Below are positions 468 through 43,016 of a DNA stretch of 46,422 bases, one piece after another (the stretch's first letter is position 1; every line of letters starts with the position of its first letter). The DNA is taken from assembly GCA_016206945.1 (NCBI GenBank), contig JACQQP010000172.1, forward strand, positions 1-46,422, written 5' to 3'. The DNA comes from Candidatus Omnitrophota bacterium (lineage in GTDB: Bacteria > Omnitrophota > Omnitrophia > Omnitrophales > Danuiimicrobiaceae). The notes below the pieces were generated by a model. It saw only the letters and a list, made by a program, of their open reading frames with translations. It did no database searches and had not been told where the DNA came from. A program made the position numbers and the translations under genes.

Positions 468-1787
468 ATGACTTGGATTTATAGCTTTGCATTTTTGATC
501 TTCGTCATTTTTTCGATCCCAAAATTTTTGATACGCTTAGGTCAGGCGACGGATCCCCGTCAACTGGTCCGCGAACGGTTCGGACTTTTACAAGGCGCGT
601 TGAAGAAAAAGATGTGGAACCAGAAAGTTCTTTGGCTTCATGCCGTGAGCGTGGGTGAAGTGATGGCAGCGCGCCAGTGGATTCAACTATTCCTTGCCGC
701 CTTCCCGGATTGGGTACTGGTTCTTTCGGTCACCACGCCCACAGGCCATGAAGTGGCTCAAAGCCTTGCTTCTGAAAGAGTCTTTGTTTTTTATGCGCCA
801 TTTGATTTTAAGTTCGTTGTGCGACGCGTTCTCAATGATATCCAACCCCAATTGATTCTTCTTATGGAAACAGAGATTTGGCCTAATTTGATTTCGGAAG
901 CACACTCGCGCAAAATTCCAATTGGAATCATCAACGGCCGAATTTCGCCGCGTTCCTTTCGGAGGTATCAGTTGGCTCGCTTCTGGATGGCTCCTGTTTT
1001 GGAAAAGCTTTCCTTTTGTTTGGTTCAATCGGAGCGTGACGGCGAATACTTTCTCAAATTGGGAATGCCCGACCTAAGAATTTTTTATACTGGAAACATG
1101 AAGTTTGATCAACTCGGCTTTACCAAGAAGGTTTCAGCGGAAATTATTCTGCAATCTGATGGTCAGACTCAAAGTCCTCAATTTTTTGTCGGAGGAAGTA
1201 CCCACTGGAATGAGGAAGAGATGCTATTGAGAGTCTTCGCTCGGTTGCGTGGGGATTTTCCCAATCTCCGACTCATTCTGGCCCCGCGGCATCCAGAAAA
1301 ACTTTCGAAAGTGATTCACGCAGTAAAACGCAGCGGCTTTGAATGTCGGTTTTTTTCACAAAATCATTCTGGCAATCCTTGGCAGGTGTTTTTGATCGAT
1401 CGAATGGGAGTTCTCGCCTCGCTCTACACGTATGCTCACGTGGTTTTCATCGGCGGAAGTTTTACGCGAAGAGGAGGGCAAAATCCGATTGAGGCCGCCC
1501 TTGCAAAAAAGCCGATCCTGTACGGGCCGAATGTATTCAATTTTGAAGAAGTGTACGGAAAGCTCGAGAGAAATGGCGCAGCGATTCAAGTAAATTCTGA
1601 GGAAGAATTGTTTCAGAAATCCAAAATGTTGTTGAGCGATCCGCGTATTGAGGAACAAATGGGAACTTTAGCGTGGACTACGGTTCAATCATTGAAAGGG
1701 GCTACCGTGCGGACACTGGATTACCTTGCAAGTTGGATTCATGGGCGGGAGCCTTCCGTTGCTTTGGTGAATAAGGTGATGGGATGA
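468..1787 (+). CDS. waaA: 3-deoxy-D-manno-octulosonic acid (Kdo) transferase, GT30
   Basis: This is the ORF-track frame 276-1787. I place the start at ATG 468 (MTWIYSFAFLIFVIF, a hydrophobic anchor), because codons 276-467 merely read through the palindromic element. The WLHAVSVGEV, METEIWPN and APRHPE motifs are typical of KdtA/WaaA. Confidence 0.9.
   Translation: MTWIYSFAFLIFVIFSIPKFLIRLGQATDPRQLVRERFGLLQGALKKKMWNQKVLWLHAVSVGEVMAARQWIQLFLAAFPDWVLVLSVTTPTGHEVAQSLASERVFVFYAPFDFKFVVRRVLNDIQPQLILLMETEIWPNLISEAHSRKIPIGIINGRISPRSFRRYQLARFWMAPVLEKLSFCLVQSERDGEYFLKLGMPDLRIFYTGNMKFDQLGFTKKVSAEIILQSDGQTQSPQFFVGGSTHWNEEEMLLRVFARLRGDFPNLRLILAPRHPEKLSKVIHAVKRSGFECRFFSQNHSGNPWQVFLIDRMGVLASLYTYAHVVFIGGSFTRRGGQNPIEAALAKKPILYGPNVFNFEEVYGKLERNGAAIQVNSEEELFQKSKMLLSDPRIEEQMGTLAWTTVQSLKGATVRTLDYLASWIHGREPSVALVNKVMG
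1773..1787 (+). promoter_or_regulatory. Extended SD + overlapping stop/start box AAGGTGATGGGATGA (native junction, no cassette)
   Basis: GGTGAT is complementary to the 16S anti-SD tail. ATG 1784-1786 starts lpxK and TGA 1785-1787 ends waaA. The same box recurs at 7143-7156, 7196-7209, 17428-17442, 19453-19467, 19581-19595, 31879-31895 (minus strand) and 43001-43016, and in degenerate form at 22845-22859, 22967-22981 and 27509-27522. Confidence 0.7.
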
Positions 1788-3076
1788 CCTTGCGGAGCTA
1801 TTTCCGGTTGCTTGCAGAAGATCGGCCTCATGTTGGCCCTTGGGCGCCGTTTTGGAAGCCGATTCTGAAGGTCGCGTCGTTTGTGTATTTCTTGGGCCTT
1901 CAAATTCACCGTTTGCTTTATCACACGGGCATTTTAAAACAACACACATTGAGCCGTCCTGTTATTAGCGTGGGCAATGTGACGTGGGGAGGAACGGGGA
2001 AAACGCCTATCGTCGAATACGTCGCCCGTTTTTACCTCAACCGTCGCAAGACGCCACTCATTTTGGCGCGCGGCTACGGGCAGGATGAAAGTAAATTGCT
2101 TGCTCGTCAATTGCCTGAAGCACAGTTTGGCATCGGTAAAGACCGCTTGCGAGCGGCCGAGCAGGTTTTGGCCCGGCGCCCCGCCGACGTAATCATTCTA
2201 GATGATGGTTTTCAACATTGGCCGATTAAGCGCGATTTGGACATTGCGGTCATCAATGTCTTGAATCCATTTGGAAATTTGTCCCTCGTCCCCCGTGGAA
2301 TTTTAAGGGAGCCTCTTAAGGGTTTAAGACGAGCAGCGATTGTTGTATTGACCGATGTCAACTTGACGCCACGAAAGGAGCTTGAAGCCTTAAAGGTTAG
2401 AATTCGCGACTTTTCTCCGAAGGTGGAATTTATAGAAGCTTATCGCGAAGCACTTTTCTTCTATCGCCCTGGTTCGCGGGAGCGGCTTGCGGTAAATCGG
2501 CTCGAAGGGGAGCGGGTCACCAGTTTTTCTGGGATCGGAACGCCGCGCTCTTTCCTGATGCTTTTGAATCTGTTGGGGATTAAAACCGTGCGAAATTTCG
2601 AATTCACCGATCACCATAGTTTTACGGAAAAAGAACTCAATGAAATTCTTAGGGTGAAGGAATTAAGTGAATCCAAAGAAGTCATCACGACGGAAAAGGA
2701 TTATTTACGTTGCGAAGAACCGGTCAGGAGAATTGTGAAACCTCTTGTATTGAAATCCCGTTTGCGCCTGACTACCGGAGAAGGACTTCTTCACCAATTT
2801 TTGGGGCACTTTGCAGGTTCGTCTTTATCTCAAGCTTACTCGAGCGGTGAGGGCGAATCTGGGAAACCCAGCTTCAATTCGGGAAGAAAGTTTCATCGAA
2901 GGAGGCGGGATTTTTCGAGCAGGGGAAGTGCCTCTCGTGAAAAAACCATCTTGCAAGATGTAGCCAGGCAAGATCCATTGAAAGAGACGGAAGTAAAAAA
3001 AGGGGTTAACGAAGCCGGTCGCGCAAAAAATGATATGCCGCCAGAAGCTTTGGGGCGGGAGACGCCAAATGTTTGA
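1784..3076 (+). CDS. lpxK: Tetraacyldisaccharide 4'-kinase with a ~85-aa low-complexity C-terminal tail
   Basis: The P-loop VGNVTWGGTGKTP and the ARGYG and ILDDGFQHW motifs identify LpxK. The core ends near residue 345. The tail is Ser/Arg/Gly/Lys/Glu-rich. Confidence 0.9.
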   Translation: MTLRSYFRLLAEDRPHVGPWAPFWKPILKVASFVYFLGLQIHRLLYHTGILKQHTLSRPVISVGNVTWGGTGKTPIVEYVARFYLNRRKTPLILARGYGQDESKLLARQLPEAQFGIGKDRLRAAEQVLARRPADVIILDDGFQHWPIKRDLDIAVINVLNPFGNLSLVPRGILREPLKGLRRAAIVVLTDVNLTPRKELEALKVRIRDFSPKVEFIEAYREALFFYRPGSRERLAVNRLEGERVTSFSGIGTPRSFLMLLNLLGIKTVRNFEFTDHHSFTEKELNEILRVKELSESKEVITTEKDYLRCEEPVRRIVKPLVLKSRLRLTTGEGLLHQFLGHFAGSSLSQAYSSGEGESGKPSFNSGRKFHRRRRDFSSRGSASREKTILQDVARQDPLKETEVKKGVNEAGRAKNDMPPEALGRETPNV

Positions 3077-5018: not shown

Positions 5019-7156
5019 GAATCGCGCAGATTTTACCTGCACTCAATGTGGGTGGAGTTGAGACGGGCACCGTTGATTTAGCCAAGGCGCTGAAGAAACG
5101 GGGTGACGAGCCTTTTGTGATCTCAAATGGGGGACCTTTGGTGGATGAGCTTGTTAAAGCGGGGATTTCTCATTTGACACTCCCCGTACATCGTAAGTCC
5201 CTTACCTCTCTTTCCTTAGTACGCCAAATTCAGGCATTTATTGAACGGGAGCGTATTGATATCCTTCATGCGAGGAGTCGCATTCCCGCTTGGCTCGCCT
5301 ATCTCGCCGTGAGGCGAACCAATTGTGACTTCGTGACGACCTGTCACGGTTATTACTCTAAACATTTTTTCAGCCGTGTCATGGGATGGGGAAAAAAGGT
5401 GATCGTGATTTCTCATTCCATTGGACGGCGGATGATTGACGATTTTGGCGTGCCTCCCGAACGCATTCGATTAATTCATCGAGGTGTCGATCTCGCCCAT
5501 TACCCTTTTTCGGCCGACAAATACAAGAAGCCGAAATCAGGACCGTTTCGTATTATTAATGTTGGGCGAATCACACCCATTAAAGGTCATGGAGATTTTA
5601 TCCGGGCGGTTCATCTTCTTTCAAAACGAATTCACAATTTAGAAGTTTCAATCGTGGGCACGCCTGATGACGATAAGGTTTCCTATTTCCGCAATTTAAA
5701 ACTGATGGTCGAAAGGCTGGGCTTGGGATCGCAGGTGAAGTTTTTAGGAACTCGCCGTGACGTGCCCCAACTCCTGCAATCAGCAGACCTCCTGGTTCTT
5801 CCTTCCAGAATTCCCGAGGCCTTCGGGCGTGTTTTGATTGAGGCGGGTGCAGTAGGAACGGTGGCGATCGCCTCTCGAATCGGGGGGATTTTGGATGTCA
5901 TTGATGAAGGTGAAAACGGTCTTTTGTTTTCCCCAGAGAATTTTGAGGAGATGGCGACTTTGATGGAGAAGATTTTGTTGGACCGCTTGCTCGCGAGAAA
6001 ATTATCTTCCAATCTTCGCAGGAAAGTAGAGCATGAATTTTCGCTCGATCAAATGGTTGAGAAAACGAGTGACGTTTATCGGGAAGTGAAACAGCAAAAA
6101 CGAATTTTGATTACGAAGCTGGGCGCTGTGGGTGATTTGGTACTTGCGACTCCGAGTTTTAGAATGGTGAGAAAACGTTTTCCAAACGCACATATTTCGC
6201 TTTTGGTGGATCCAAAATTGATTCCCTTGGTCCAACGTTGTCCCTATTTTGATGAGATCATTGCCTACAATCGTTCCCACTACTCAGATCAGTGGCAGCG
6301 TTTGTTTAAGTTGAGTAAACGGTTGAGACGATGGGGTTTTGATCTATCGATCGACTTCCAGAACAATTGGAGAACCCATGCGCTTGCGTTCTTAGCAGGC
6401 GTTCCAAAGCGGTATGGTTATAAAAGGGGAATCGCTGGTTTCCTGCTCACTCACCCCGTCGTCTTTTGGGACAGAAGTCTCAGTCCTGTGGAGCATCAAT
6501 TTCAAGTGCTCAAAAGGGCTGGAGTCATCCAATTTGAGAATGCGATCGAACTTTGGCCGGATTCAGAAGCGGATGCTCACATATCAAAACAACTGAGAGA
6601 AGCAAAAAATGGTGCGGCCCCTATTCGCATCGGATTGGTTTTAGGGGCTAGTCCACGCTGGCCAACGAAACAGTGGCCTGTGGAACGTTTTGTGGAACTG
6701 TCCAAGCGCTTAAGGGACGAATTGGATTGTCAGATTGTCTTGATCGGGCGAGAAGAAGACGAGAGTCTGGCACGTGTGTTTAAGCGAGATCATCTAAAGG
6801 GCATTCTCAACTTGACGGGAAAAACGAGTCTGCCGCAATTGGTCAGCCTCGTTAAACAACTTGATCTTTTGGTAACCGGGGACACGGCGCCCCTGCATAT
6901 GGCAAGTGCGTTCGATACAAAAACGGTCGCTTTATTTGGTCCCACAGAACCCAAACGTCATATGCCGCCGGGAGAGGGCCATATCGCTCTTGTGAAACGG
7001 ATTCCCTGTCAGCCTTGCTACAGCGGAACGTGCCGAAATTCGATAAAGCTCCTTTGCCTCAAGGAAATTAGTGTGGACGAAGTTTTTGAAACGATTAAAC
7101 AACAACTTCAGTTGGCAGGGGCTCGGCCTCTCGGCTCAAGCCAGGTGATGGGATAA
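5012..7156 (+). CDS. Fusion of a GT4 glycosyltransferase (N-terminal) with a GT9 heptosyltransferase-family domain (C-terminal)
   Basis: Residues 1-360 look like group-1 GT (GGVETGTVDLAKAL, EAFGRVLIEAGAVGT, ENGLLF). From residue ~365 the protein shows GT9 signatures: KRILITKLGAVGDLVLATPSF, TGDTAPLHMASA and LFGPT. Confidence 0.85.
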   Translation: MLRIAQILPALNVGGVETGTVDLAKALKKRGDEPFVISNGGPLVDELVKAGISHLTLPVHRKSLTSLSLVRQIQAFIERERIDILHARSRIPAWLAYLAVRRTNCDFVTTCHGYYSKHFFSRVMGWGKKVIVISHSIGRRMIDDFGVPPERIRLIHRGVDLAHYPFSADKYKKPKSGPFRIINVGRITPIKGHGDFIRAVHLLSKRIHNLEVSIVGTPDDDKVSYFRNLKLMVERLGLGSQVKFLGTRRDVPQLLQSADLLVLPSRIPEAFGRVLIEAGAVGTVAIASRIGGILDVIDEGENGLLFSPENFEEMATLMEKILLDRLLARKLSSNLRRKVEHEFSLDQMVEKTSDVYREVKQQKRILITKLGAVGDLVLATPSFRMVRKRFPNAHISLLVDPKLIPLVQRCPYFDEIIAYNRSHYSDQWQRLFKLSKRLRRWGFDLSIDFQNNWRTHALAFLAGVPKRYGYKRGIAGFLLTHPVVFWDRSLSPVEHQFQVLKRAGVIQFENAIELWPDSEADAHISKQLREAKNGAAPIRIGLVLGASPRWPTKQWPVERFVELSKRLRDELDCQIVLIGREEDESLARVFKRDHLKGILNLTGKTSLPQLVSLVKQLDLLVTGDTAPLHMASAFDTKTVALFGPTEPKRHMPPGEGHIALVKRIPCQPCYSGTCRNSIKLLCLKEISVDEVFETIKQQLQLAGARPLGSSQVMG

Positions 7157-7209
7157 AAGAGCGCTTTGCTTTGATATTAAGCGCTCTTTTAAACGAGGTG
7201 GTGGGATGA
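7153..7209 (+). repeat. Short SD-box cassette G (hairpin flanked by a direct duplication of the SD box)
   Basis: AGGTGATGGGAT (7143-7154, containing the upstream stop TAA 7154-7156) and AGGTGGTGGGAT (7196-7207, followed by ATG 7206) flank a 10-bp hairpin, AAAAGAGCGC 7155-7164 / GCGCTCTTTT 7181-7190. The right part resembles 19566-19595. Confidence 0.5.
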
Positions 7210-16584: not shown

Positions 16585-17434
16585 TATTATTTTCGGCGAT
16601 CCAAACCAGTTTGTGTTCATTGCGGGGCCCTGTGTCATCGAAGGAGAAGAGAGCACACTTCGGCATGCCGAGCGAATTTCTAGGATGGTACAAGAACTCA
16701 ATATTCCTTATGTGTTTAAGTCGAGTTACGACAAAGCGAATCGTTCTTCAATCCATTCTTATCGAGGTCCTGGAATTGAGGACGGACTTAAGATTCTTGC
16801 GAAAGTAAAGAAGGAATTTCAAATTCCTGTTTTAAGCGATGTCCATACCGTTGAGGAGGTCGACCGAGCGGCCGAAGTACTCGACATTCTTCAAGTGCCT
16901 GCCTTTCTTTCCCGCCAAACAGATCTCGTCGTTGCCTGTGCAAAGACTCGAAAAATCGTGAATGTGAAAAAAGGACAATTTCTTTCTCCATGGGACATGA
17001 AGAATGTCGTTGAAAAGATTGAGTCGGTTGGAAACAAAAATATTTTATTAACCGAGAGAGGCGCTTCCTTTGGTTATCGGAATTTAGTCAGCGATTTCCG
17101 GTCGATTCCAATTATGCAAGGTTTTGGTTATCCCGTTGTTTTTGATGTGACTCACTCGGTTCAAATCCCGGGCGGTTTAGGACATGCTTCGGGAGGGCAA
17201 GCCGAATTTATTCCTACGTTGGCACGATGTGCCGTTGCGGCCGGGGTGGACGCCGTTTTCATGGAGGTTCATGAAAATCCCAAGGTCGCCAAATCGGATG
17301 GGCCCAATAATTTAGCGCTTTCTGATTTAAAAGATATTCTTCAAGTTTTGAAACGGATTCGTGCAGCAGCACCTTTAGTCAGAGAAGAAACTTCGAAAAG
17401 GAAGCGTTCACTCAAAAAAACGGTGACGGTGTGA
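16562..17434 (+). CDS. kdsA: 3-deoxy-8-phosphooctulonate synthase (Kdo-8-P synthase)
   Basis: The start is at ATG 16562 (MKQVRLGN), inside the track ORF 16526. Motifs are [20 protein letters not shown] and FDVTHSVQ. It has a basic C-terminal tail. Confidence 0.9.
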
Positions 17435-17442
17435 TGGGATGA
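17428..17442 (+). promoter_or_regulatory. Extended SD + start box GGTGTGATGGGATGA (native junction, no cassette)
   Basis: The kdsA stop TGA lies at 17432-17434 inside the box. ATG 17439 starts kdsD. The GTGATGGGATGA core matches 1776-1787. Confidence 0.6.
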
Positions 17443-18404
17443 AACAAGACCGCTTGCTTGCGAAAAAAATTCTGAGGACGGAGGCTCAAGCCATTCACAA
17501 ACTCATGACGCGAATTAACCGTGAGTTTGAGGAAGCGCTTGATCTATTGGAGCGCGCCAGCGGCCGTGTCATTGTGACGGGAATGGGAAAGCCCGGTTTC
17601 ATCGCTCGCAAAATCGCGGCTACGTTTGCTTCTACGGGAACTCCCAGTCTCTTCCTGCATCCAGCGGAGGCGGTTCACGGCGATCTTGGAATGGTGACAA
17701 GACAGGATGTAGTCCTTGCTATTTCCAATAGCGGAGAGACGGAGGAAATCACAAAATTGCTCTCTACGATTAAAAAGATTGGGGCCAAGCTGATTGCTTT
17801 GACGGGCAATGTTAAGTCTACGTTGGCGAAAAATTCCGACGTCGTATTGAACATTGGGTTAGAAAAGGAAGCGTGTCCTTGGAATTTAGCTCCTACCGCA
17901 TCAACGACAGCATCTTTAGCCATGGGTGATGCATTGGTCATTTGTTTGGCAAAGAGAAAGGGGTTTCGCGAAGAGGACTTCGCCTTTCTTCATCCTGGAG
18001 GCAACCTCGGCAAGAAATTACTTAAAGTGCGTGATTTAATGAGGCGGGGAAAGTCACATCCGATTGTGCCCGGAACGGCGACAGTGAAAAAAGCGCTCTT
18101 GGCCATTACCAGTGCTCGCGCAGGTTCCTGTACCGTTGTGGATCGAGATGGAAAACTCAAGGGAATTTTTACGGATGGAGATTTAAGGCGCCATCTTAAG
18201 GAAAATGGCGTATCAATTTTGTCACAGCCAATTGAACCTTTTGCAACGAAACAACCCGTGACCATTCAAGAGGACAGATTAGCTGCGGAGGCGCTTCAAC
18301 TTTTGCGCGATCGGCACATTGATGAGTTGCCAGTTGTTGACCGTAAAGGGCGCGCCGTTGGCCTGCTGGATGTGCAGGATCTGTTAAAAGCAGGCTTTGT
18401 GTGA
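17439..18404 (+). CDS. kdsD: Arabinose-5-phosphate isomerase (KpsF/GutQ family: SIS domain + tandem CBS)
   Basis: The SIS motif VIVTGMGKPGFIARKIAATFASTG and the GETEE motif are present. The C-terminal CBS pair includes LPVVD. Confidence 0.9.
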   Translation: MKQDRLLAKKILRTEAQAIHKLMTRINREFEEALDLLERASGRVIVTGMGKPGFIARKIAATFASTGTPSLFLHPAEAVHGDLGMVTRQDVVLAISNSGETEEITKLLSTIKKIGAKLIALTGNVKSTLAKNSDVVLNIGLEKEACPWNLAPTASTTASLAMGDALVICLAKRKGFREEDFAFLHPGGNLGKKLLKVRDLMRRGKSHPIVPGTATVKKALLAITSARAGSCTVVDRDGKLKGIFTDGDLRRHLKENGVSILSQPIEPFATKQPVTIQEDRLAAEALQLLRDRHIDELPVVDRKGRAVGLLDVQDLLKAGFV

Positions 18405-19345
18405 GCAAGACAAGGAAACACCGATTTCTGCTCTACCTTGGTCTTGAAGTGATCAGACACATTGTCTTGGTGCTGCCAAGGTGGCTCAATTTGGCGATCG
18501 CGCGAGCTCTTGGCTTTGCAACCTTCTGGGTTCTTCCCAAGGAACGAGCCAAGACGGTGCGCCATTTGAAGGAAGCTTTTGGCGATGAAAAAACTGAGAG
18601 CGAACTTCGGAAAATCGGCGAGAAGGTTTTTATTCATTTGACTCAGTCTGCAATTGACGTCCTTTGTTTCCCGCGGCTCAATCGTAAGCGCGTAGAGCGC
18701 CTTGTTGATTTGGAGGGCGGCACTGAAAGGCTAGATCGTGCGCTGGCGCGCGGAAATGGCGTGATCGCATTGACAGGTCACATTGGAAACTGGGAACTCT
18801 TGGCTTCGTATTTTCGATTTCTGGGCTATCCAGGACGCTTGGTAGGTCGAAGGATTTATTACGAGCGGTTCGATCAGGTACTAGTTTCGCTTAGAAAGAG
18901 TGCTCTTGTCTCGACCCTTTATCGGGATGAATCTCCACGCCAGGTCTTGGCCGAACTTCGAGCGAACCATGTCGTGGGAATGTCTGCCGACCAGGACATT
19001 GATAGCGTGGAGGGAGTTTTTGTTCCTTTTTTTGGAAAATGGGCTTGGACACCGACAGGTCCAGCAAAAATCGCATTGGCCAGCGGGGCAGCTATTGTTC
19101 CAGCCTTTATGCTTCACGATCGGAATCGATACCGATTATTCATTGAAGAACCTATTTGGCCCGTTGAAAGCGTTTCAAAGGAAAAAGCGATCGGCATGAT
19201 GACGGAGGCTTGGTCTCGAGTCGTTGAAAGTTACATTCGACGTTATCCAGATCAATGGGTTTGGATGCACCGCCGCTGGAAAACCCAGGCGGACGTTGCC
19301 GATCGCTTTAGGGATGCATCAGAACTACAAGAAGTAAAGTTATGA
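18401..19345 (+). CDS. Lipid A biosynthesis late acyltransferase (LpxL/HtrB family)
   Basis: The LTGHIGNWE catalytic motif and the RYPDQWVWMHRRWK C-terminal motif are present. The GTG start overlaps the kdsD stop (GTGTGA). Confidence 0.85.
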   Translation: MSKTRKHRFLLYLGLEVIRHIVLVLPRWLNLAIARALGFATFWVLPKERAKTVRHLKEAFGDEKTESELRKIGEKVFIHLTQSAIDVLCFPRLNRKRVERLVDLEGGTERLDRALARGNGVIALTGHIGNWELLASYFRFLGYPGRLVGRRIYYERFDQVLVSLRKSALVSTLYRDESPRQVLAELRANHVVGMSADQDIDSVEGVFVPFFGKWAWTPTGPAKIALASGAAIVPAFMLHDRNRYRLFIEEPIWPVESVSKEKAIGMMTEAWSRVVESYIRRYPDQWVWMHRRWKTQADVADRFRDASELQEVKL

Positions 19346-19467
19346 TCCCATCTGAAAGAAGAGAACAGAGAACGGTGTACAGAGTACAGAAGATTAGGTC
19401 CCGTTCTTTTTTACTCTGTTCTCTGTACTCTGTTCTCTGTACTCTGTTTCTAGAGGTGATGGGATGA
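19342..19467 (+). repeat. SD-box cassette C (family I, 126 nt) with a 41-codon ATGA-to-ATGA mini-ORF
   Basis: ATG 19342 overlaps the upstream stop (ATGA), and it ends GAGGTGATGGGATGA. The interior has heptamer arrays, ACAGAGW on one arm (about 19364-19391) and the complementary WCTCTGT x5 (19413-19447). It aligns without gaps, at about 80% identity, with 22856-22981. Confidence 0.8.
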
Positions 19468-19595
19468 TCCCAACCACCTGTTTTTCTCGCGTTTCATTCA
19501 GGTGGTTGAACTTTGAAACGCGAGAATTTCTTTCAGAAATTAAAGGCCGCATTAACTTAAAACGAGGCGTTCTTTTAAAACAGGTGGTGGGATGA
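19464..19595 (+). repeat. SD-box cassette F (family III-like, 132 nt) with a 43-codon ATGA-to-ATGA mini-ORF
   Basis: It starts ATGATCCCAACCACCTGTTT and ends AAACAGGTGGTGGGATGA. ATG 19464 overlaps the stop of cassette C, and its own TGA overlaps the lptC ATG 19592. Interleaved inverted repeats are present: 19471-80/19499-508 and 19484-96/19514-26. Confidence 0.65.
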
Positions 19596-20479
19596 TCCGC
19601 AAATTTGTTGTCATTTCGGTCATTTTAGTTTCGGCTTATGTGGCCTTGATTCAATGGAAACTATGGATGCACGTGCTTTCCGGTACGCAGTTTTGGAAGG
19701 TGCCATCCAGTGAGACGCAGGACGGCTCAGCGCAGCGCGTCTATAGTTTCTCGTTTTCAAAATACACCGAAGATGGAAAAAAAGAACTCGAAATCGAGGG
19801 AGATTCGGCGGATATTCTTTCGCAAAATGTGGGGCTTATCAATGTGATCGCAAAGGCCTATGCGGAGGAATCTCCCGTAACGATTACGGCTGATCAAGGT
19901 TCCATCGATCGTTCCACAAACAACATCCTTTTGCATAAGAATGTCGTGGCCACCACAGAGAATGGAACACGTTTGCTCACCGAAAAACTTGAAATACATC
20001 CAGACAGCAAGAATTTGGCTACCGATGTAGAAGCAAAGGTCAAGAAAGACAATATCAACATCCAAGGAATCGGCGCTCAGAGTGACTCCCAATTGAACAA
20101 AGTGACCTTTAAGAAAAACGTAACTGTAGTCATTCAAAGTCCTGAGGCAAAATCAAAATCACCCACGATCATTACCTCTGATGGGCCGCTCGATTTGGAC
20201 TATAAGCGGGACGTTGCCCACTTTTCAAAAAATGTGGTGGCGCGGCACGATCAGGGAGTATTGACTGCGGATTACATGGATGTGCTCTATCATAAAGAAA
20301 CGAGTCGCCTTTCGAAAATTATTGCACGCGGGAACGTGGTGATCGTGAGTAAAGATGGGACCAAGACGTTTAGCGACAGCGCTGTTTATTTGGCCAAAGA
20401 AAAGCGCATCGTCTTGGGTGGTGATGTAGAAACACAGTACGATCCGAGCAGCGCAGGTGTAGATGGAACTTTGTTTTAA
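19592..20479 (+). CDS. lptC: LPS export periplasmic protein, LptC-like with a second OstA/LptA-like domain (possible LptC-LptA fusion)
   Basis: It has an N-terminal TM anchor. There are two OstA-type repeats (ITADQGSIDRSTNNILLHKNVV and LTADYMDVLY...ARGNVVIV...AVYLAKEKRIVLGGDV). At 295 aa it is larger than either LptC or LptA alone. It sits directly upstream of lptB. Confidence 0.65.
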   Translation: MIRKFVVISVILVSAYVALIQWKLWMHVLSGTQFWKVPSSETQDGSAQRVYSFSFSKYTEDGKKELEIEGDSADILSQNVGLINVIAKAYAEESPVTITADQGSIDRSTNNILLHKNVVATTENGTRLLTEKLEIHPDSKNLATDVEAKVKKDNINIQGIGAQSDSQLNKVTFKKNVTVVIQSPEAKSKSPTIITSDGPLDLDYKRDVAHFSKNVVARHDQGVLTADYMDVLYHKETSRLSKIIARGNVVIVSKDGTKTFSDSAVYLAKEKRIVLGGDVETQYDPSSAGVDGTLF

Positions 20480-22741: not shown

Positions 22742-22859
22742 ATGATTCCATCACCTGTTTGCAAAGAGCGCGCATTTGGTTCTAAACATCACGCGCTCTT
22801 TGATCCTTTAAGAAAAGATCTCGCCACAACGTGGCGAGACAAACAGGTGATTGGGATGA
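22742..22859 (+). repeat. SD-box cassette E (family III-like, 118 nt)
   Basis: It starts ATGATTCCATCACCTGTTT and ends AAACAGGTGATTGGGATGA. The 13-bp terminal inverted repeat is interrupted by one extra T. Internal hairpins lie at 22762-72/22792-802 (11 bp) and 22819-25/22833-39 (7 bp). Confidence 0.65.
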
Positions 22860-22981
22860 TCCCATCTGAAAGAAGAGAACAGAGTACAGAGTACAGAGAA
22901 CAGAAGGTGAGTTTCCATTCTTTTTTACTCTGTTCTCTGTCATCAGTACTCTGTAATGTTTTCCTTCAGGTGGTGACATGA
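22856..22981 (+). repeat. SD-box cassette D (family I, 126 nt)
   Basis: It has the same length and frame as 19342-19467. It encodes MIPSERREQSTEYREQKVSFHSFLLCSLSSVLCNVFLQVVT, and its TGA overlaps the yvcK-like ATG 22978. Because of the extra T in cassette E, E and D read as a single 79-codon ORF. Confidence 0.8.
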
Positions 22982-30787: not shown

Positions 30788-31882
30788 TCATTCATTAGCG
30801 CGGTCCAGGAAGAAGAACGTTCCAAAACCGAACATAAAATTGGGAGACCAAGTACTCAAAATAGGAAAAAGTTTTCCTGCTTTCCCAAGTGCGAGCAGAA
30901 TAGCGCCCGTAATGTGAAAGAGGAATACAAAGGCAAGACAAGTTAGTACGTTCAAGGCAATCATGCGGCGCCTTGTTGTTTTGGCTAAAAAGGGCACCGT
31001 CAGAAACATAACCACCAAACTTTGCCAGGGAAAGGCAAGTTTTTGATGGAGTGTAACCAACTCGGCATCTGCCTTGATTCCATTTTCCCTGAGTTTCGCA
31101 ATATACTCTTTTAGATCTCGGTAACTGATCGCAATTCCCTCGTTCACAGCTTTCAGGAAATCATTGGGCGTTTCGTTAATCTCTGGGTAAACAATCACGG
31201 CTTGAAACGTGGGTTCGCCCAGCATGTCGCCTTTCTGTTCTAGCGCGTAATCAGTCGCTTGGCGGAGTTCCCAGTGGGAGCCCATCCACTTGGCTTCGCG
31301 AGCCACGGTTTTCTTTTTTACGTTCCTTTTTGCGTCTAGCCAAAGGACAATAAAATCTTCGAACCGTTCTTCTTTTGCGTGGAAAACGCGCCCATAGTAA
31401 AGCCGGTTTTTACCGCCGTAGTAGGTGACGTTTGCGAATACCCCTCGTTTTTCATCCGTTTGCTTCTTTTCAATCCATTCGTTTAAGAGTTGTTCCGCTT
31501 TCCGCGAAGTGTTCGGCACGATTTGGTCGCTCACCAGGAAAGAAATGACGCCAACGACAAATCCAACGAAAATAATGGGTCGAATCATCGAAGTGATTTC
31601 TAAACCTGCAACCTTCATCGCAATGAGTTCGTTGTGGTAATTAAAAGTACTGAGGACATAGATGGTGGCAAGGAGACACGCCCATGGAATTATGGAAATG
31701 AAAGTTTGCGGTGTCAGGACCAAATAATACAGAAGAATATGGTGAAAAGCAGTTTTGTTTCGGATCATCGCGTCCAAGTAGTCAAAAATATCCGCCACGA
31801 ACACCAAGAGAATTAAAGTGACACAACAAAAAAAGATGGGAAATAAAAGCTGTTTTGCAAGATATCGGTCAAGAATCTTCAT
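30788..31882 (-). CDS. LPS export ABC transporter permease (LptF/LptG, YjgP/YjgQ family)
   Basis: MKILDRYLAKQLLFPIFF is the typical N-terminus of this family, and the protein has multiple TM segments with a large periplasmic loop. The start is placed at ATG 31882, immediately after GGAGGTGATGGG, rather than at the track's 31921. Confidence 0.85.
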   Translation of the reverse strand: MKILDRYLAKQLLFPIFFCCVTLILLVFVADIFDYLDAMIRNKTAFHHILLYYLVLTPQTFISIIPWACLLATIYVLSTFNYHNELIAMKVAGLEITSMIRPIIFVGFVVGVISFLVSDQIVPNTSRKAEQLLNEWIEKKQTDEKRGVFANVTYYGGKNRLYYGRVFHAKEERFEDFIVLWLDAKRNVKKKTVAREAKWMGSHWELRQATDYALEQKGDMLGEPTFQAVIVYPEINETPNDFLKAVNEGIAISYRDLKEYIAKLRENGIKADAELVTLHQKLAFPWQSLVVMFLTVPFLAKTTRRRMIALNVLTCLAFVFLFHITGAILLALGKAGKLFPILSTWSPNFMFGFGTFFFLDRANE

Positions 31883-32016
31883 CCCATCACCTCCACGGCA
31901 AGAGCGCGTTTTAAGAGGCAATCTTGCACTCTGAGTGAAGTGCGTTCTTGCATTTTCTTTGAAAATACGCCGCCCATCTTAAGAAAAGGCGGCGTACGGG
32001 GAGGTGATAGGATCAT
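31879..32016 (-). repeat. SD-box cassette A (family II, 138 nt) with an intact 45-codon ATGA-to-ATGA mini-ORF
   Basis: On the minus strand, ATGA (32016-32013) overlaps the comF stop. The left end is GATCCTATCACCTCC and the right end is GGAGGTGATGGGATGA, overlapping the lptF/G start. Two hairpins lie at 31966-74/31988-96 and 31898-907/31942-51. It aligns without gaps, at about 85% identity, with 42879-43016. Confidence 0.85.
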
Positions 32017-42878: not shown

Positions 42879-43016
42879 TTGATCCCATCACCTCCGCGTA
42901 CGCCGCCTCCTCTTAAGATGGGCGGCGTATGTTTGTAGAAAATGCAAGAGCACGCTTTATTCAGAGTGCAAGATTGCTTCTTTAAGCGTGCTCTTGCGGT
43001 AGAGGTGATGGGATGA
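42879..43016 (+). repeat. SD-box cassette B (family II, 138 nt), with its mini-ORF disrupted
   Basis: The left end is TTGATCCCATCACCTCC and the right end is AGAGGTGATGGGATGA, with ATG 43013 starting nadX. Hairpins lie at 42899-907/42921-29 (9 bp) and 42944-55/42986-97 (12 bp). It is the same length as 31879-32016, but has TTG in place of ATG and an in-frame TAG at 42936-38. Confidence 0.85.

What the first reader, a model, noticed from the sequence alone, without database searches (positions are those of the whole stretch)
19464..19595. Cassette F: tandem to cassette C, with interleaved inverted repeats suggesting alternative structures or nested insertion
Its ATG (19464) overlaps the stop of cassette C, and its TGA overlaps the lptC ATG. 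The chain acyltransferase -> 41-codon ORF -> 43-codon ORF -> lptC is thus linked by three consecutive ATGA overlaps. Inside, CAACCACCTG (19471-80) pairs with CAGGTGGTTG (19499-508), and TTCTCGCGTTTCA (19484-96) pairs with TGAAACGCGAGAA (19514-26). The two helices are interleaved (A-B-A'-B'). The A/A' pair is itself a degenerate copy of the cassette termini. The last 30 nt (19566-19595) closely resemble 7181-7209. The mini-ORF reads MIPTTCFSRVSFRWLNFETREFLSEIKGRINLKRGVLLKQVVG.
Basis: seen in the sequence. Interest (0 to 1): 0.62.

Follow-up and report, generated by a model that had tools for sequence, protein, structure and literature searches.

The report
Frame-preserving mobile repeat between operon genes
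Cassette F is one copy of a small mobile inverted-repeat element, common in Omnitrophota bacteria, that inserts at the overlapping stop/start codons between operon genes and carries its own stop-free mini reading frame and ribosome-binding site, probably so that translation of the downstream gene (here lptC) is not cut off.

Summary
The 43-codon ORF, the three ATGA overlaps, helix A/A' (10 bp) and helix B/B' (13 bp) are all at the stated coordinates.

Five relatives have no insert at this junction, and in four of them the acyltransferase stop and lptC start overlap directly as ATGA. Cassettes C and F are therefore a ~250-nt insertion.

F belongs to a dispersed family of ~110-150-nt terminal-inverted-repeat elements (TCCCA(N)CACCTG...CAGGTGRTGGGA). 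I found them in about 100 loci, nearly all from Omnitrophota MAGs. Identical 3-nt flanks, mostly TGA, occur in 116 of 123 copies.

Of 89 elements, 79 have a length that is a multiple of three. In 75, a stop-free mini-ORF runs from the upstream ATGA to the downstream ATGA.

The right terminus supplies the Shine-Dalgarno sequence and the A of the ATG. The left terminus is its complement.

Across ten F-like copies, the terminal stem, hairpin B and a 3' hairpin covary. A/A' does not. A is the left terminus, and its conserved partner is the right terminus.

A' is a subfamily-specific, terminus-like sequence in the B loop, plausibly a relic. Nested insertion does occur in this family (L185).

The closest known analogue is the mycobacterial MIRU.

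The parts
18401..19345 (+). Lipid A lauroyl-acyltransferase-like gene (LpxL/HtrB family). Its TGA stop (19343-45) is the left 3-nt flank of cassette C.
   Evidence: ORF. NCBIfam hits below the curated cut-offs (PRK08419, E = 2.9e-39).
19342..19467 (+). Cassette C. The 41-codon mini-ORF is MIPSERREQ...LEVMG. The element body is 19346-19464 (TCCCATCTG...GGTGATGGGA), a long hairpin of -56.8 kcal/mol. A second copy lies at 22856-22981 (83%).
19464..19595 (+). Cassette F mini-ORF, 43 codons. Its ATG overlaps the TGA of C, and its TGA overlaps the lptC ATG.
   Evidence: The same 43-codon frame occurs in L081 and L089, and a 43-codon frame on the other element strand in L090.
19468..19592 (.). Cassette F element body (TCCCAACCACCTG...CAGGTGGTGGGA), flanked by TGA at 19465-67 and 19593-95.
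19468..19484 (+).
   Evidence: I6 and I14. Helix 1 (90.7% paired, 2 compensatory pairs).
19484..19526 (+). Hairpin B: a 13-bp stem (19484-96 / 19514-26) with a 17-nt loop. It is conserved and covaries in F-like copies.
   Evidence: I7. Helix 2 (5 pairs changed on both sides). P = 0.90.
19499..19508 (+). A' (CAGGTGGTTG), a terminus-like sequence inside the loop of hairpin B. It is specific to one subfamily and is not supported by covariation.
19527..19539 (+). Short hairpin TTTCT-ttc-AGAAA. It is nearly invariant in F-like copies, so it is uninformative for covariation.
   Evidence: Helix 3.
19541..19576 (+). 3' hairpin (consensus AAAAGARCGC...GCGYTCTTTT). The window copy is damaged by G19546 and C19547. 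Nearly all contigs of other copies laid here carry A at 19546 and most carry A at 19547, which restores the pairing. It is homologous to 7155-7195.
   Evidence: Helix 4 (4 compensatory pairs)..
19577..19592 (+). Right terminal inverted repeat of F. It carries the Shine-Dalgarno-like AGGTGGT (19582-88) and the A of the lptC ATG.
   Evidence: The SD has an unpaired probability of about 0 in the untranslated transcript.
19592..20479 (+). lptC. Its start codon and MIRK N-terminus are conserved in relatives that lack the cassettes.
22742..22981 (+). Two tandem family members: G (22742-22859) and C2 (22856-22981). Together they form one 79-codon ORF whose TGA overlaps the yvcK ATG at 22978.
31879..32016 (-). 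Family member H2. Its 45-codon mini-ORF overlaps the upstream stop (ATGA at 32016-32013) and the downstream start (ATGA at 31882-31879).
   Evidence: (I1).
42879..43016 (+). Family member H, 86% complementary to H2 (its inverted copy). It supplies the SD and ATG for the aspartate dehydrogenase gene. Its own frame starts with TTG and has an in-frame TAG. The upstream gene ends 20 nt earlier.
7143..7209 (+). Half element: a right-terminus-like AGGTGATGGGA, then TAA, then the right half of an F-type element (3' hairpin plus AGGTGGTGGGATGA). It supplies the SD and ATG of a heptosyltransferase gene.
   Evidence: The breakpoint is the same ATAA site used by the nested insertion in L185.

Best explanation
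**What it is.** Cassette F is a copy of a non-autonomous, MITE-like mobile element family that is widespread in Candidatus Omnitrophota.

**Anatomy.**
- The element body is TCCCA(N)CACCTG ... CAGGTGRTGGGA, about 105-145 nt.
- It has a 12-17-nt terminal inverted repeat and internal hairpins.
- It is flanked by a 3-nt direct repeat, nearly always TGA on the coding strand.

**Insertion (shown by comparison).** The element inserts into the TGA of an NTGA stop/start overlap between co-oriented genes. The original start codon plus TGA stays on the left. The terminal A of the element plus the duplicated TGA makes a new ATGA on the right. The termini are symmetric, so either orientation puts an extended Shine-Dalgarno sequence (AGGTGRT) 3 nt (GGG) before the new ATG.

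**Reading frame (shown statistically).** Element plus duplication is a multiple of three and free of stops.

**Translation model (inferred).** A ribosome that terminates the upstream gene re-initiates on the mini-ORF, translates through the element, and terminates on the start codon of the downstream gene. Translational coupling is thereby passed along. At this locus two such elements (C, then F) sit in tandem between the acyltransferase gene and lptC, which gives three ATGA overlaps.

**Structure (predicted; dependence on upstream translation is inferred).** In the untranslated mRNA the left terminus (anti-SD-like) pairs with the right terminus and buries the lptC SD. lptC translation is therefore expected to depend on ribosomes reading the mini-ORF.

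**The two helices.** B/B' is a genuine, conserved internal hairpin of the F subfamily. A is simply the left terminus. A' is a terminus-like sequence in the B loop of one subfamily and is not a conserved pairing partner.
For: **Empty sites.**
- L001, L002, L003 and L004 have a direct ATGA overlap between the acyltransferase gene and lptC.
- L005 also has no insert.

**Repeat status.**
- Contig word depth over 19340-19610 is 250-1300, against about 11 in the flanks, in groundwater metagenomes.

**F homologues at unrelated loci in other genomes.**
- L081, L084, L089, L090, L163, L185, L186, L158 and L166.

**Family-wide scan.**
- The upstream flanks of 88 elements are unrelated to one another.

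**Target duplication.**
- The 3-nt flanks are identical in 116 of 123 copies. These include the rare triplets TAA (5), TTA (2) and CGA (1).
- In L185 a 62-nt element with a TAA duplication sits at the ATAA site of an F copy.

**Reading frame.**
- 79 of 89 lengths are multiples of three.
- 75 of 89 mini-ORFs run from the left ATG to the TGA that overlaps the downstream ATG.
- Controls: 28% open in shuffles, 44% if the element is flipped, 37% in another frame.
- The start codon of the mini-ORF is ATG, GTG or TTG in about 99% of oriented copies.
- In 72 of 89 the right ATG opens an ORF of 60 codons or more. In 58 of 89 the left TGA ends one.

**Structure.**
- The nested model (termini + B + H3 + H4) is 92% paired, with 11 compensatory pairs and 0 of 500 shuffles as good.
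- The lptC SD is fully paired in the partition function.
Against: - No transposase or autonomous element with these termini was found in the 1.28 Mb of loci held. All left/right terminus pairs are under 200 nt apart.
- There are no RNA or ribosome data, so translation of the mini-ORFs and SD occlusion are inferred.
- There is no sense-strand excess of G.U-type over A.C-type mismatches (36 vs 50, p = 0.16) and only a marginal sense/antisense energy difference. The hairpins could therefore be conserved for DNA-level reasons alone.
- Some of the openness is compositional or inherited: 28-44% in the controls, and F copies are open in both orientations.
- Elements share ancestry, so the 75/89 and 79/89 counts are not independent events. 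Against that, at least 13 different 3n length classes are represented.
- No presence/absence polymorphism was seen at this locus in the metagenome contigs.
Confidence: 0.72

Rival explanations
1. Cassette F is a cis-regulatory RNA switch for lptC. The anti-SD-like arm A pairs either with the decoy A' (SD free, lptC on) or with the real SD in the right terminus (lptC off). Hairpin B presents A' in its loop.
For: - Both pairings exist in the window copy.
- A:A' alone is worth -16.3 kcal/mol and is the MFE of the nascent transcript up to 19512, so it could form first during transcription.
- The variant that carries A' is abundant in the source metagenomes, and each A' substitution is at 6% or less of depth.
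Against: - A:A' has no covariation and is paired in only 64% of cells across ten F-like copies, the same as shuffles.
- The loop that holds A' is replaced by unrelated sequence in L084, L090, L163, L186, L158 and L166.
- The three other carriers each have a different uncompensated change in A': mismatches in L185 and L089, and a mismatch plus a G.U wobble in L081.
- The equilibrium probability is about 1e-15.
- With connecting loops of 3, 2 and 5 nt, 10-bp and 13-bp stems could hardly coexist as a pseudoknot (general structural knowledge).
- No Rfam family matches.
- F-like copies sit in front of unrelated genes, in both orientations.
Confidence: 0.08
2. The mini-ORFs encode real small proteins. 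Cassettes C and F would be small genes of the LPS operon.
For: - The ORFs are open, have ATG starts, and are coupled to their neighbours.
- The L081 and L089 copies keep a similar 43-aa peptide.
Against: - No Pfam-type or NCBIfam family matches.
- Peptides of different subfamilies are unrelated apart from the ends, which are encoded by the termini (MIP.. and ..VVG/VMG).
- The reversed F copy in L090 is equally open but encodes a completely different peptide.
- Window and L081 differ at 10 of 43 residues for 15 nucleotide differences.
- The same element sits in front of unrelated genes.
Confidence: 0.04
3. The repeats are DNA-level structural or mobile elements only, whether REP/REPIN-like or a transposase substrate. 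The open frames and 3n lengths would be a passive filter: only insertions that do not break operon expression survive. The RNA hairpin and SD occlusion would have no regulatory role.
For: - There is no sense-strand G.U bias.
- Copies occur in both orientations.
- Hairpins and termini are typical of transposition substrates.
- H at 42879-43016, which has no overlapping upstream gene, has lost its open frame, while its relative H2 in a coupled context keeps it.
Against: This differs from the best explanation only in denying a role for the RNA fold. It still requires that the mini-ORF is translated for the filter to act. Specific REP/RAYT features are absent: the units are far longer than REPs, they have a 3-nt duplication, and they have long terminal repeats.
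Confidence: 0.15
4. Chance complementarity in a decaying intergenic spacer.
For: The 3' hairpin of the window copy is damaged.
Against: - Perfect repeats of 10 nt and 13 nt are rare in shuffles: 1.35% and 0.05%.
- Homologous copies exist in other genomes.
- Covariation supports the nested fold.
- Five relatives have no spacer at all at this junction.
Confidence: 0.01

Closest known systems
Mycobacterial interspersed repetitive units (MIRUs; Supply et al. 1997, as summarised in PMC12548453 and PMC3184786)
   Same: - Short repeats (40-100 bp) inside operons.
- Apparently mobile, inserted at start codons.
- They contain a small ORF whose ends overlap the stop and start of the flanking genes with -4 spacing.
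- Tetranucleotide direct repeats flank filled sites, and empty sites exist in relatives.
- They are proposed to preserve translational coupling.
   Different: - A different phylum, with no sequence relation tested or expected.
- The Omnitrophota elements have long, near-perfect terminal inverted repeats that are themselves an SD/anti-SD pair.
- They fold into very stable hairpins (mean -74 kcal/mol) and occur in both orientations.
- They come in many unrelated cores.
- Tandem arrays here join different elements, rather than being VNTR-type copies of one unit.
Bacterial MITEs (for example Correia/NEMIS of Neisseria, Nezha of cyanobacteria)
   Same: Terminal inverted repeats, short target duplication, no transposase, many dispersed copies, filled and empty sites, co-transcription with neighbouring genes, and long RNA stem-loops.
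   Different: - No cognate IS has been identified.
- Insertion is almost exclusively at stop/start overlaps.
- Length is constrained to 3n with stop-free frames.
- The termini provide the SD and start codon, rather than promoters or IHF sites.
Neisseria REP2 and Borrelia IR repeats (PMC3184786)
   Same: [quoted passage not shown]
   Different: REP2 has no terminal inverted repeats, carries a promoter, and is not described as translationally coupled to an upstream gene.
Rickettsia palindromic elements (RPEs; recalled, and cited in PMC3184786 as Ogata et al. 2000)
   Same: Palindromic mobile repeats that are tolerated because they keep the reading frame.
   Different: RPEs sit inside protein-coding genes and become part of the protein. 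Here the element forms its own mini-ORF between genes. Only 2 of 89 copies (L083, L115) read on into the downstream gene, and in the window G reads through into C2.
IS5-family / PIF-Harbinger-type transposons with 3-bp TNA duplications (recalled from memory, not tested)
   Same: A 3-nt duplication with consensus TNA.
   Different: No transposase gene was found, and the terminal sequences were not compared with any IS. This is only a lead for finding the mobilising enzyme.

Membership tests
MITE (non-autonomous TIR transposable element) | Terminal inverted repeats | tested here: met
   In F, 19470-84 pairs with 19577-91 (15 nt, 93%). The family consensus is ATGATCCCACCACCTGC / GCAGGTGGTGGGATGA.
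MITE (non-autonomous TIR transposable element) | Target-site duplication | tested here: met
   The 3-nt flanks are identical in 116 of 123 copies, including rare TAA, TTA and CGA. The nested insertion in L185 has a TAA duplication.
MITE (non-autonomous TIR transposable element) | Many dispersed copies at unrelated sites, with filled and empty orthologous sites | tested here: met
   About 100 loci, unrelated flanks, empty sites in L001-L005, and 30-110x depth in metagenomes.
MITE (non-autonomous TIR transposable element) | A cognate autonomous IS with the same termini | tested here: inconclusive
   None was found in the 1.28 Mb of loci. Those loci were chosen around short elements, and no whole genome was available.
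MIRU-like coupling repeat | A small ORF whose start and stop overlap the stop and start of the flanking operon genes | tested here: met
   Window C and F; 75 of 89 family members.
MIRU-like coupling repeat | Sequence homology to mycobacterial MIRUs, and tandem VNTR copies of one unit | not tested
   No MIRU sequence was compared. The tandem arrays here join different elements (C+F, G+C2).
REP/REPIN mobilised by RAYT | 20-40-nt imperfect palindromes with a conserved tetranucleotide head, no target duplication, and an associated RAYT gene | tested here: not met
   The units are 105-145 nt with long terminal repeats and a 3-nt duplication. RAYT genes were not searched for.
Integron attC / gene cassette | R''/R' core sites (RYYYAAC / GTTRRRY) downstream of promoterless mobile genes next to an integrase | tested here: not met
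   The termini are TCCCACCACCTG / CAGGTGGTGGGA. The flanking genes are syntenic core LPS genes that lack the repeat in relatives.
Known structured cis-regulatory RNA (Rfam) | A match to a curated covariance model | tested here: not met
   No hit at gathering thresholds in the whole window. At E <= 1 there are only sub-threshold eukaryotic miRNA-hairpin matches on cassette C.
Two-state RNA switch (A:A' vs A:SD) | Both alternative helices conserved or covarying among homologues | tested here: not met
   The terminal helix is supported. A:A' is not: 64% paired, and 359 of 500 shuffles do as well.

The most novel reading that the evidence does not exclude
The family is more than a tolerated parasite. 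Its termini have evolved into a matched SD/anti-SD pair, so each insertion turns an ordinary stop/start overlap into an obligatory translational-coupling lock. The downstream SD and AUG are buried in a -50 to -75 kcal/mol hairpin that only a ribosome reading the mini-ORF can open. Omnitrophota operons would then use these elements, singly or stacked as in C+F, to set the stoichiometry of neighbouring genes. In the abundant subfamily that carries A', the internal terminus copy would act as a co-transcriptional decoy that tunes how tightly the lock closes.
Probability: 0.15. Interest if true: 0.8.

Novelty: new variant of a known kind. Interest (0 to 1): 0.6.

Why it matters
**For mobile-element and translation biology.** If the mini-ORFs are translated, this would be a second, independent and much larger example after the mycobacterial MIRUs of a mobile element that survives inside essential operons by relaying translational coupling. 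It has a cleaner design than MIRUs: symmetric termini deliver a Shine-Dalgarno sequence and the A of the ATG in either orientation. It offers a natural experiment, with hundreds of insertions across genomes of 44-67% GC, on how far termination-reinitiation coupling can be stretched.

**For genome annotation.**
- These elements create runs of spurious 36-49-codon "hypothetical proteins" in Omnitrophota.
- They break short-read assemblies.
- They can mislead start-codon calls, for example for the gene at 30788-31921.
- They may contribute variable C-terminal tails to upstream genes.

Tried and rejected
- **Exact-protein look-up of LptC.** Not on record, so the source genome and strain variants could not be fetched.
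- **RNA sequencing runs for the locus.** None listed.
- **Rfam.** Nothing relevant at gathering or permissive thresholds.
- **Metagenome scan with an F-specific terminus + centre pattern.** Only two hits, although one (L185) was the informative nested insertion.
- **Search for an autonomous element among the held loci.** No left/right terminus pair more than 200 nt apart.
- **Sense-strand G.U excess as a test of RNA-level selection.** No signal.
- **Presence/absence polymorphism at this locus in four groundwater metagenomes.** No clean joint across either cassette. The listed joints (19269 to 19840, 19494 to 19567, 19487 to 19577) have 21-31-nt anchors and look like other repeat copies or other organisms.
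- **Matching B and B' variant frequencies in contigs.** B' variants 19521 C>G and 19522 G>C are at 21-26% of depth, but the partner positions were not listed, so no conclusion is possible.
- **Literature searches for a prior description in Omnitrophota.** Nothing found.
- **Rejected outright.**
  - Integron attC: wrong core sites, and the flanking genes are core syntenic genes.
  - REP/RAYT: wrong size, and a target duplication is present.
  - Small-protein genes: the peptides are unrelated, and the reversed copy is equally open.
  - The L086 hit: a chance match inside what looks by eye like an IS3-type transposase coding sequence (not searched against families) in an Alcaligenaceae MAG.

Full report
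**1.

The window carries an LPS gene cluster: kdsA, kdsD, an LpxL-like acyltransferase (18401-19345), lptC (19592-20479) and lptB. Between the acyltransferase gene and lptC lie two short ORFs, 19342-19467 (41 codons) and 19464-19595 (43 codons). ATGA overlaps occur at 19342, 19464 and 19592.

Inside the second ORF, CAACCACCTG (19471-80) is perfectly complementary to CAGGTGGTTG (19499-508). TTCTCGCGTTTCA (19484-96) is perfectly complementary to TGAAACGCGAGAA (19514-26). The two pairs are interleaved.

Perfect inverted repeats of 10 nt or more occur in 1.35% of dinucleotide-preserving shuffles of the cassette, and repeats of 13 nt or more in 0.05%. The last 29 nt match 7181-7209 at 90%.

The predicted minimum-free-energy fold uses that pairing, not A/A' (z = -7.2).

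**2. The cassettes are an insertion into a stop/start overlap.**

The closest relatives retrievable are Candidatus Omnitrophota MAGs with 61-73% amino-acid identity for the acyltransferase.
- In L001, L002, L003 and L004 the acyltransferase stop and the lptC start overlap directly as ATGA. In L003 the sequence is GAGGTAGTGGGATGATTCG.
- L005 also has no insert.
- The lptC N-terminus (MIRK...) is the same throughout.

The ~250 nt in the window is therefore lineage-specific.

**3. Cassette F is a multi-copy element.**

In four groundwater metagenomes that contain this genome, contig depth is about 11 in the flanking genes. It is 250-1300 across 19340-19610.

A full-length homologue with the same 43-codon frame lies in front of a 139-aa gene that looks RNase H-like by eye, in another species (L081 3524-3655). 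Further F-like copies are L084, L089, L090, L163, L158, L166 (genomes) and L185, L186 (metagenomes). All have unrelated flanks, and some are reversed relative to the coding strand.

**4. F belongs to a large family.**

A scan for the shared termini (ATCCCA N1-2 CACCT ... Almost all are from Omnitrophota MAGs of 44-67% GC from several continents.

In the 1.28 Mb now held:
- With the element defined as TCCCA...TGGGA, the three bases on either side are identical in 116 of 123 copies. This includes the rare triplets TAA (5), TTA (2) and CGA (1). That is the signature of a 3-bp target duplication, almost always TGA on the coding strand.
- The 20 nt upstream of 88 elements are unrelated to one another.
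- The base before the left TGA is A, G or T but almost never C, so the left junction is a start codon overlapping a stop.
- 79 of 89 elements have a length from ATG to TGA that is a multiple of three, across at least 13 length classes from 93 to 150 nt.
- In 75 of 89 the frame is open from the left ATG to the TGA that overlaps the downstream ATG.
- Controls for an open frame give 28% (shuffles), 37% (another frame) and 44% (same elements flipped in silico).
- In 72 of 89 the right ATG opens an ORF of 60 codons or more. In 58 of 89 the left TGA closes one.

L185 shows a 62-nt family member inserted, with a TAA duplication, into the ATAA site of an F copy. The composite is still in frame and open.

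The window itself holds six full members (C, F, G, C2, H, H2) and one half element.

**5. Which helices are real.**

I aligned ten F-like copies (A1) and counted pairs.

| Structure tested | Cells paired | Pairs changed on both sides | Shuffles at least as good (covariation score) |
|---|---|---|---|
| Nested fold: terminal stem + hairpin B + short hairpin + 3' hairpin | 92% (41-50% when the register is slid) | 11 | 0 of 500 |
| A/A' | 64% | 1 | 300 of 500 (359 of 500 for percentage paired) |

- Hairpin B shows the swaps CGCG to GCCG/CGGC.
- The terminal stem shows T19481/A19580 changing to C/G.
- The B loop that holds A' is unrelated sequence in six of the ten copies.
- In the four carriers (window, L185, L089, L081), the changes in A' are three different uncompensated ones.
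- The ancestral form of A' (CAGGTGGTTGGAC; 19509 A>G in about half of metagenome depth) is an inverted copy of the element's own left terminus.
- In the window transcript, the partition function gives P(A:A') of about 1e-15, P(A:right terminus) of 0.78 and P(B) of 0.90. The lptC SD is essentially never unpaired.
- A:A' (-16.3 kcal/mol) is the best fold of the nascent RNA before B' is made, so a transient role cannot be excluded.

**6. Most likely mechanism.**

*Shown by comparison.* A non-autonomous TIR element duplicates the TGA of an NTGA overlap. Its symmetric termini recreate ATGA on the right and place AGGTGRT three bases (GGG) before it.

*Shown statistically.* Surviving copies keep a 3n, stop-free frame that links the two ATGA overlaps.

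*Inferred.*
- Ribosomes that finish the upstream gene re-initiate on the mini-ORF, unwind the hairpin, and terminate on the downstream start. Coupling is thus relayed through C, then F, to lptC.
- Without that translation, the terminal stem hides the SD.

*Unknown.* The transposase is not identified. No partner with these termini was found in the held loci.

*Inconclusive.* I could not tell whether the hairpins are kept for RNA-level or DNA-level reasons. G.U-type and A.C-type mismatches are balanced (36 vs 50).

**7. Comparison with known systems.**

The closest functional analogue is the mycobacterial MIRU. These are mobile repeats that insert at start codons so that an internal ORF is coupled at -4 spacing. 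They have tetranucleotide direct repeats, and empty sites exist in relatives (PMC12548453; PMC3184786, both citing Supply et al. 1997).

The family described here differs in several ways:
- It has long terminal inverted repeats that are an SD/anti-SD pair.
- It forms very stable hairpins.
- It works in both orientations.
- It has many unrelated cores.
- It comes from a different phylum.

It meets the structural definition of a MITE, except that no cognate IS was found. It is not a REP, an attC site or any Rfam family.

I found no description of it in the searchable literature on Omnitrophota.

**8. Verdict.**

The sequence features are real and far from chance. The 'alternative structure' reading is not supported by homologues. 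'Nested insertion' is a genuine behaviour of the family, but it can explain A' only as a relic.

This is a phylum-wide, frame-preserving, SD-carrying mobile element that colonises stop/start overlaps.

Limits of the evidence:
- All data come from MAGs and metagenome contigs.
- Copies are not phylogenetically independent.
- No expression data exist.

Noticed in passing
window 7143-7209: This is a half element. The upstream glycosyltransferase/heptosyltransferase fusion gene ends ...QVMG* in a right-terminus-like AGGTGATGGGATAA. It is followed by only the right half of an F-type element (3' hairpin plus AGGTGGTGGGATGA), which gives the next heptosyltransferase gene its SD and ATG. The breakpoint is the same ATAA site used by the nested insertion in L185.
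   Followed up: partly
window 1774-1787 and 17429-17442: Gene junctions without an element carry the same motif as the element's right end: AGGTGATGGGATGA at the 276-1787 / 1784-3076 overlap, and GTGTGATGGGATGA before kdsD. These could be native SD-ATGA junctions that the element mimics or targets, or solo-terminus relics. L003 and L004 have GAGGTAGTGGGATGA and GGAGGTAGCGGGATGA at the empty lptC site.
   Followed up: partly
window 18401-19345 versus L001-L005: The C-terminal tail of the acyltransferase after the conserved ...RRWKT motif is unrelated in every relative. The window's last codons (GAAGTAAAGTTATGA) look like a decayed copy of the relatives' SD-ATGA junction. This fits relaxed selection on the old SD after the element brought a new one.
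   Followed up: no
window 22742-22981: Tandem elements G and C2 lie upstream of yvcK. G is 118 nt (not 3n), so its frame runs through the junction ATG into C2. The result is one 79-codon ORF whose TGA overlaps the yvcK ATG. The upstream gene, apparently hprK by operon position (not checked against families), ends with TAA 3 nt before the ATGA.
   Followed up: partly
window 31879-32016 (-) and 42879-43016 (+): Two copies are 86% complementary, one the inverted copy of the other. The copy wedged between two overlapping genes keeps a 45-codon open coupled frame. The copy whose upstream gene ends 20 nt earlier has a TTG start and an in-frame TAG.
   Followed up: partly
window 30788-31921 (-): The mechanical ORF start (TTG at 31921) lies inside element H2. 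The likely true start is the ATG at 31882, supplied by the element's terminus (GGAGGTGATGGGATGAAGATT on the minus strand).
   Followed up: no
L185 365-575: An F copy carries a 62-nt family member inserted at its ATAA site with a TAA duplication. The composite ORF of about 65 codons stays open and still ends on the downstream ATG.
   Followed up: yes
L101 4107-4224: This element is flanked by CGA/CGA instead of TNA and lies 3 nt downstream of an ATGA. It is a rare off-target insertion that still shows a matching 3-nt duplication.
   Followed up: no
window, all gene starts: Most genes in the window have weak or no Shine-Dalgarno sequences upstream of their starts. The strongest SDs are the ones supplied by the repeat termini.
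   Followed up: no
window 19238-19305: There is a depth spike in the metagenome contigs (up to 382 vs about 10) over the conserved YPDQWVWMHRRWK-coding stretch of the acyltransferase. The loose ends are GC-rich. This is cross-mapping from other organisms, not a repeat.
   Followed up: partly
window 19360-19448: Cassette C contains a 14-nt unit (TACTCTGTTCTCTG) repeated in tandem on one arm and mirrored on the other. This gives alternative registers of a long hairpin, and it attracts sub-threshold Rfam hits to eukaryotic miRNA precursors, which are meaningless here.
   Followed up: no
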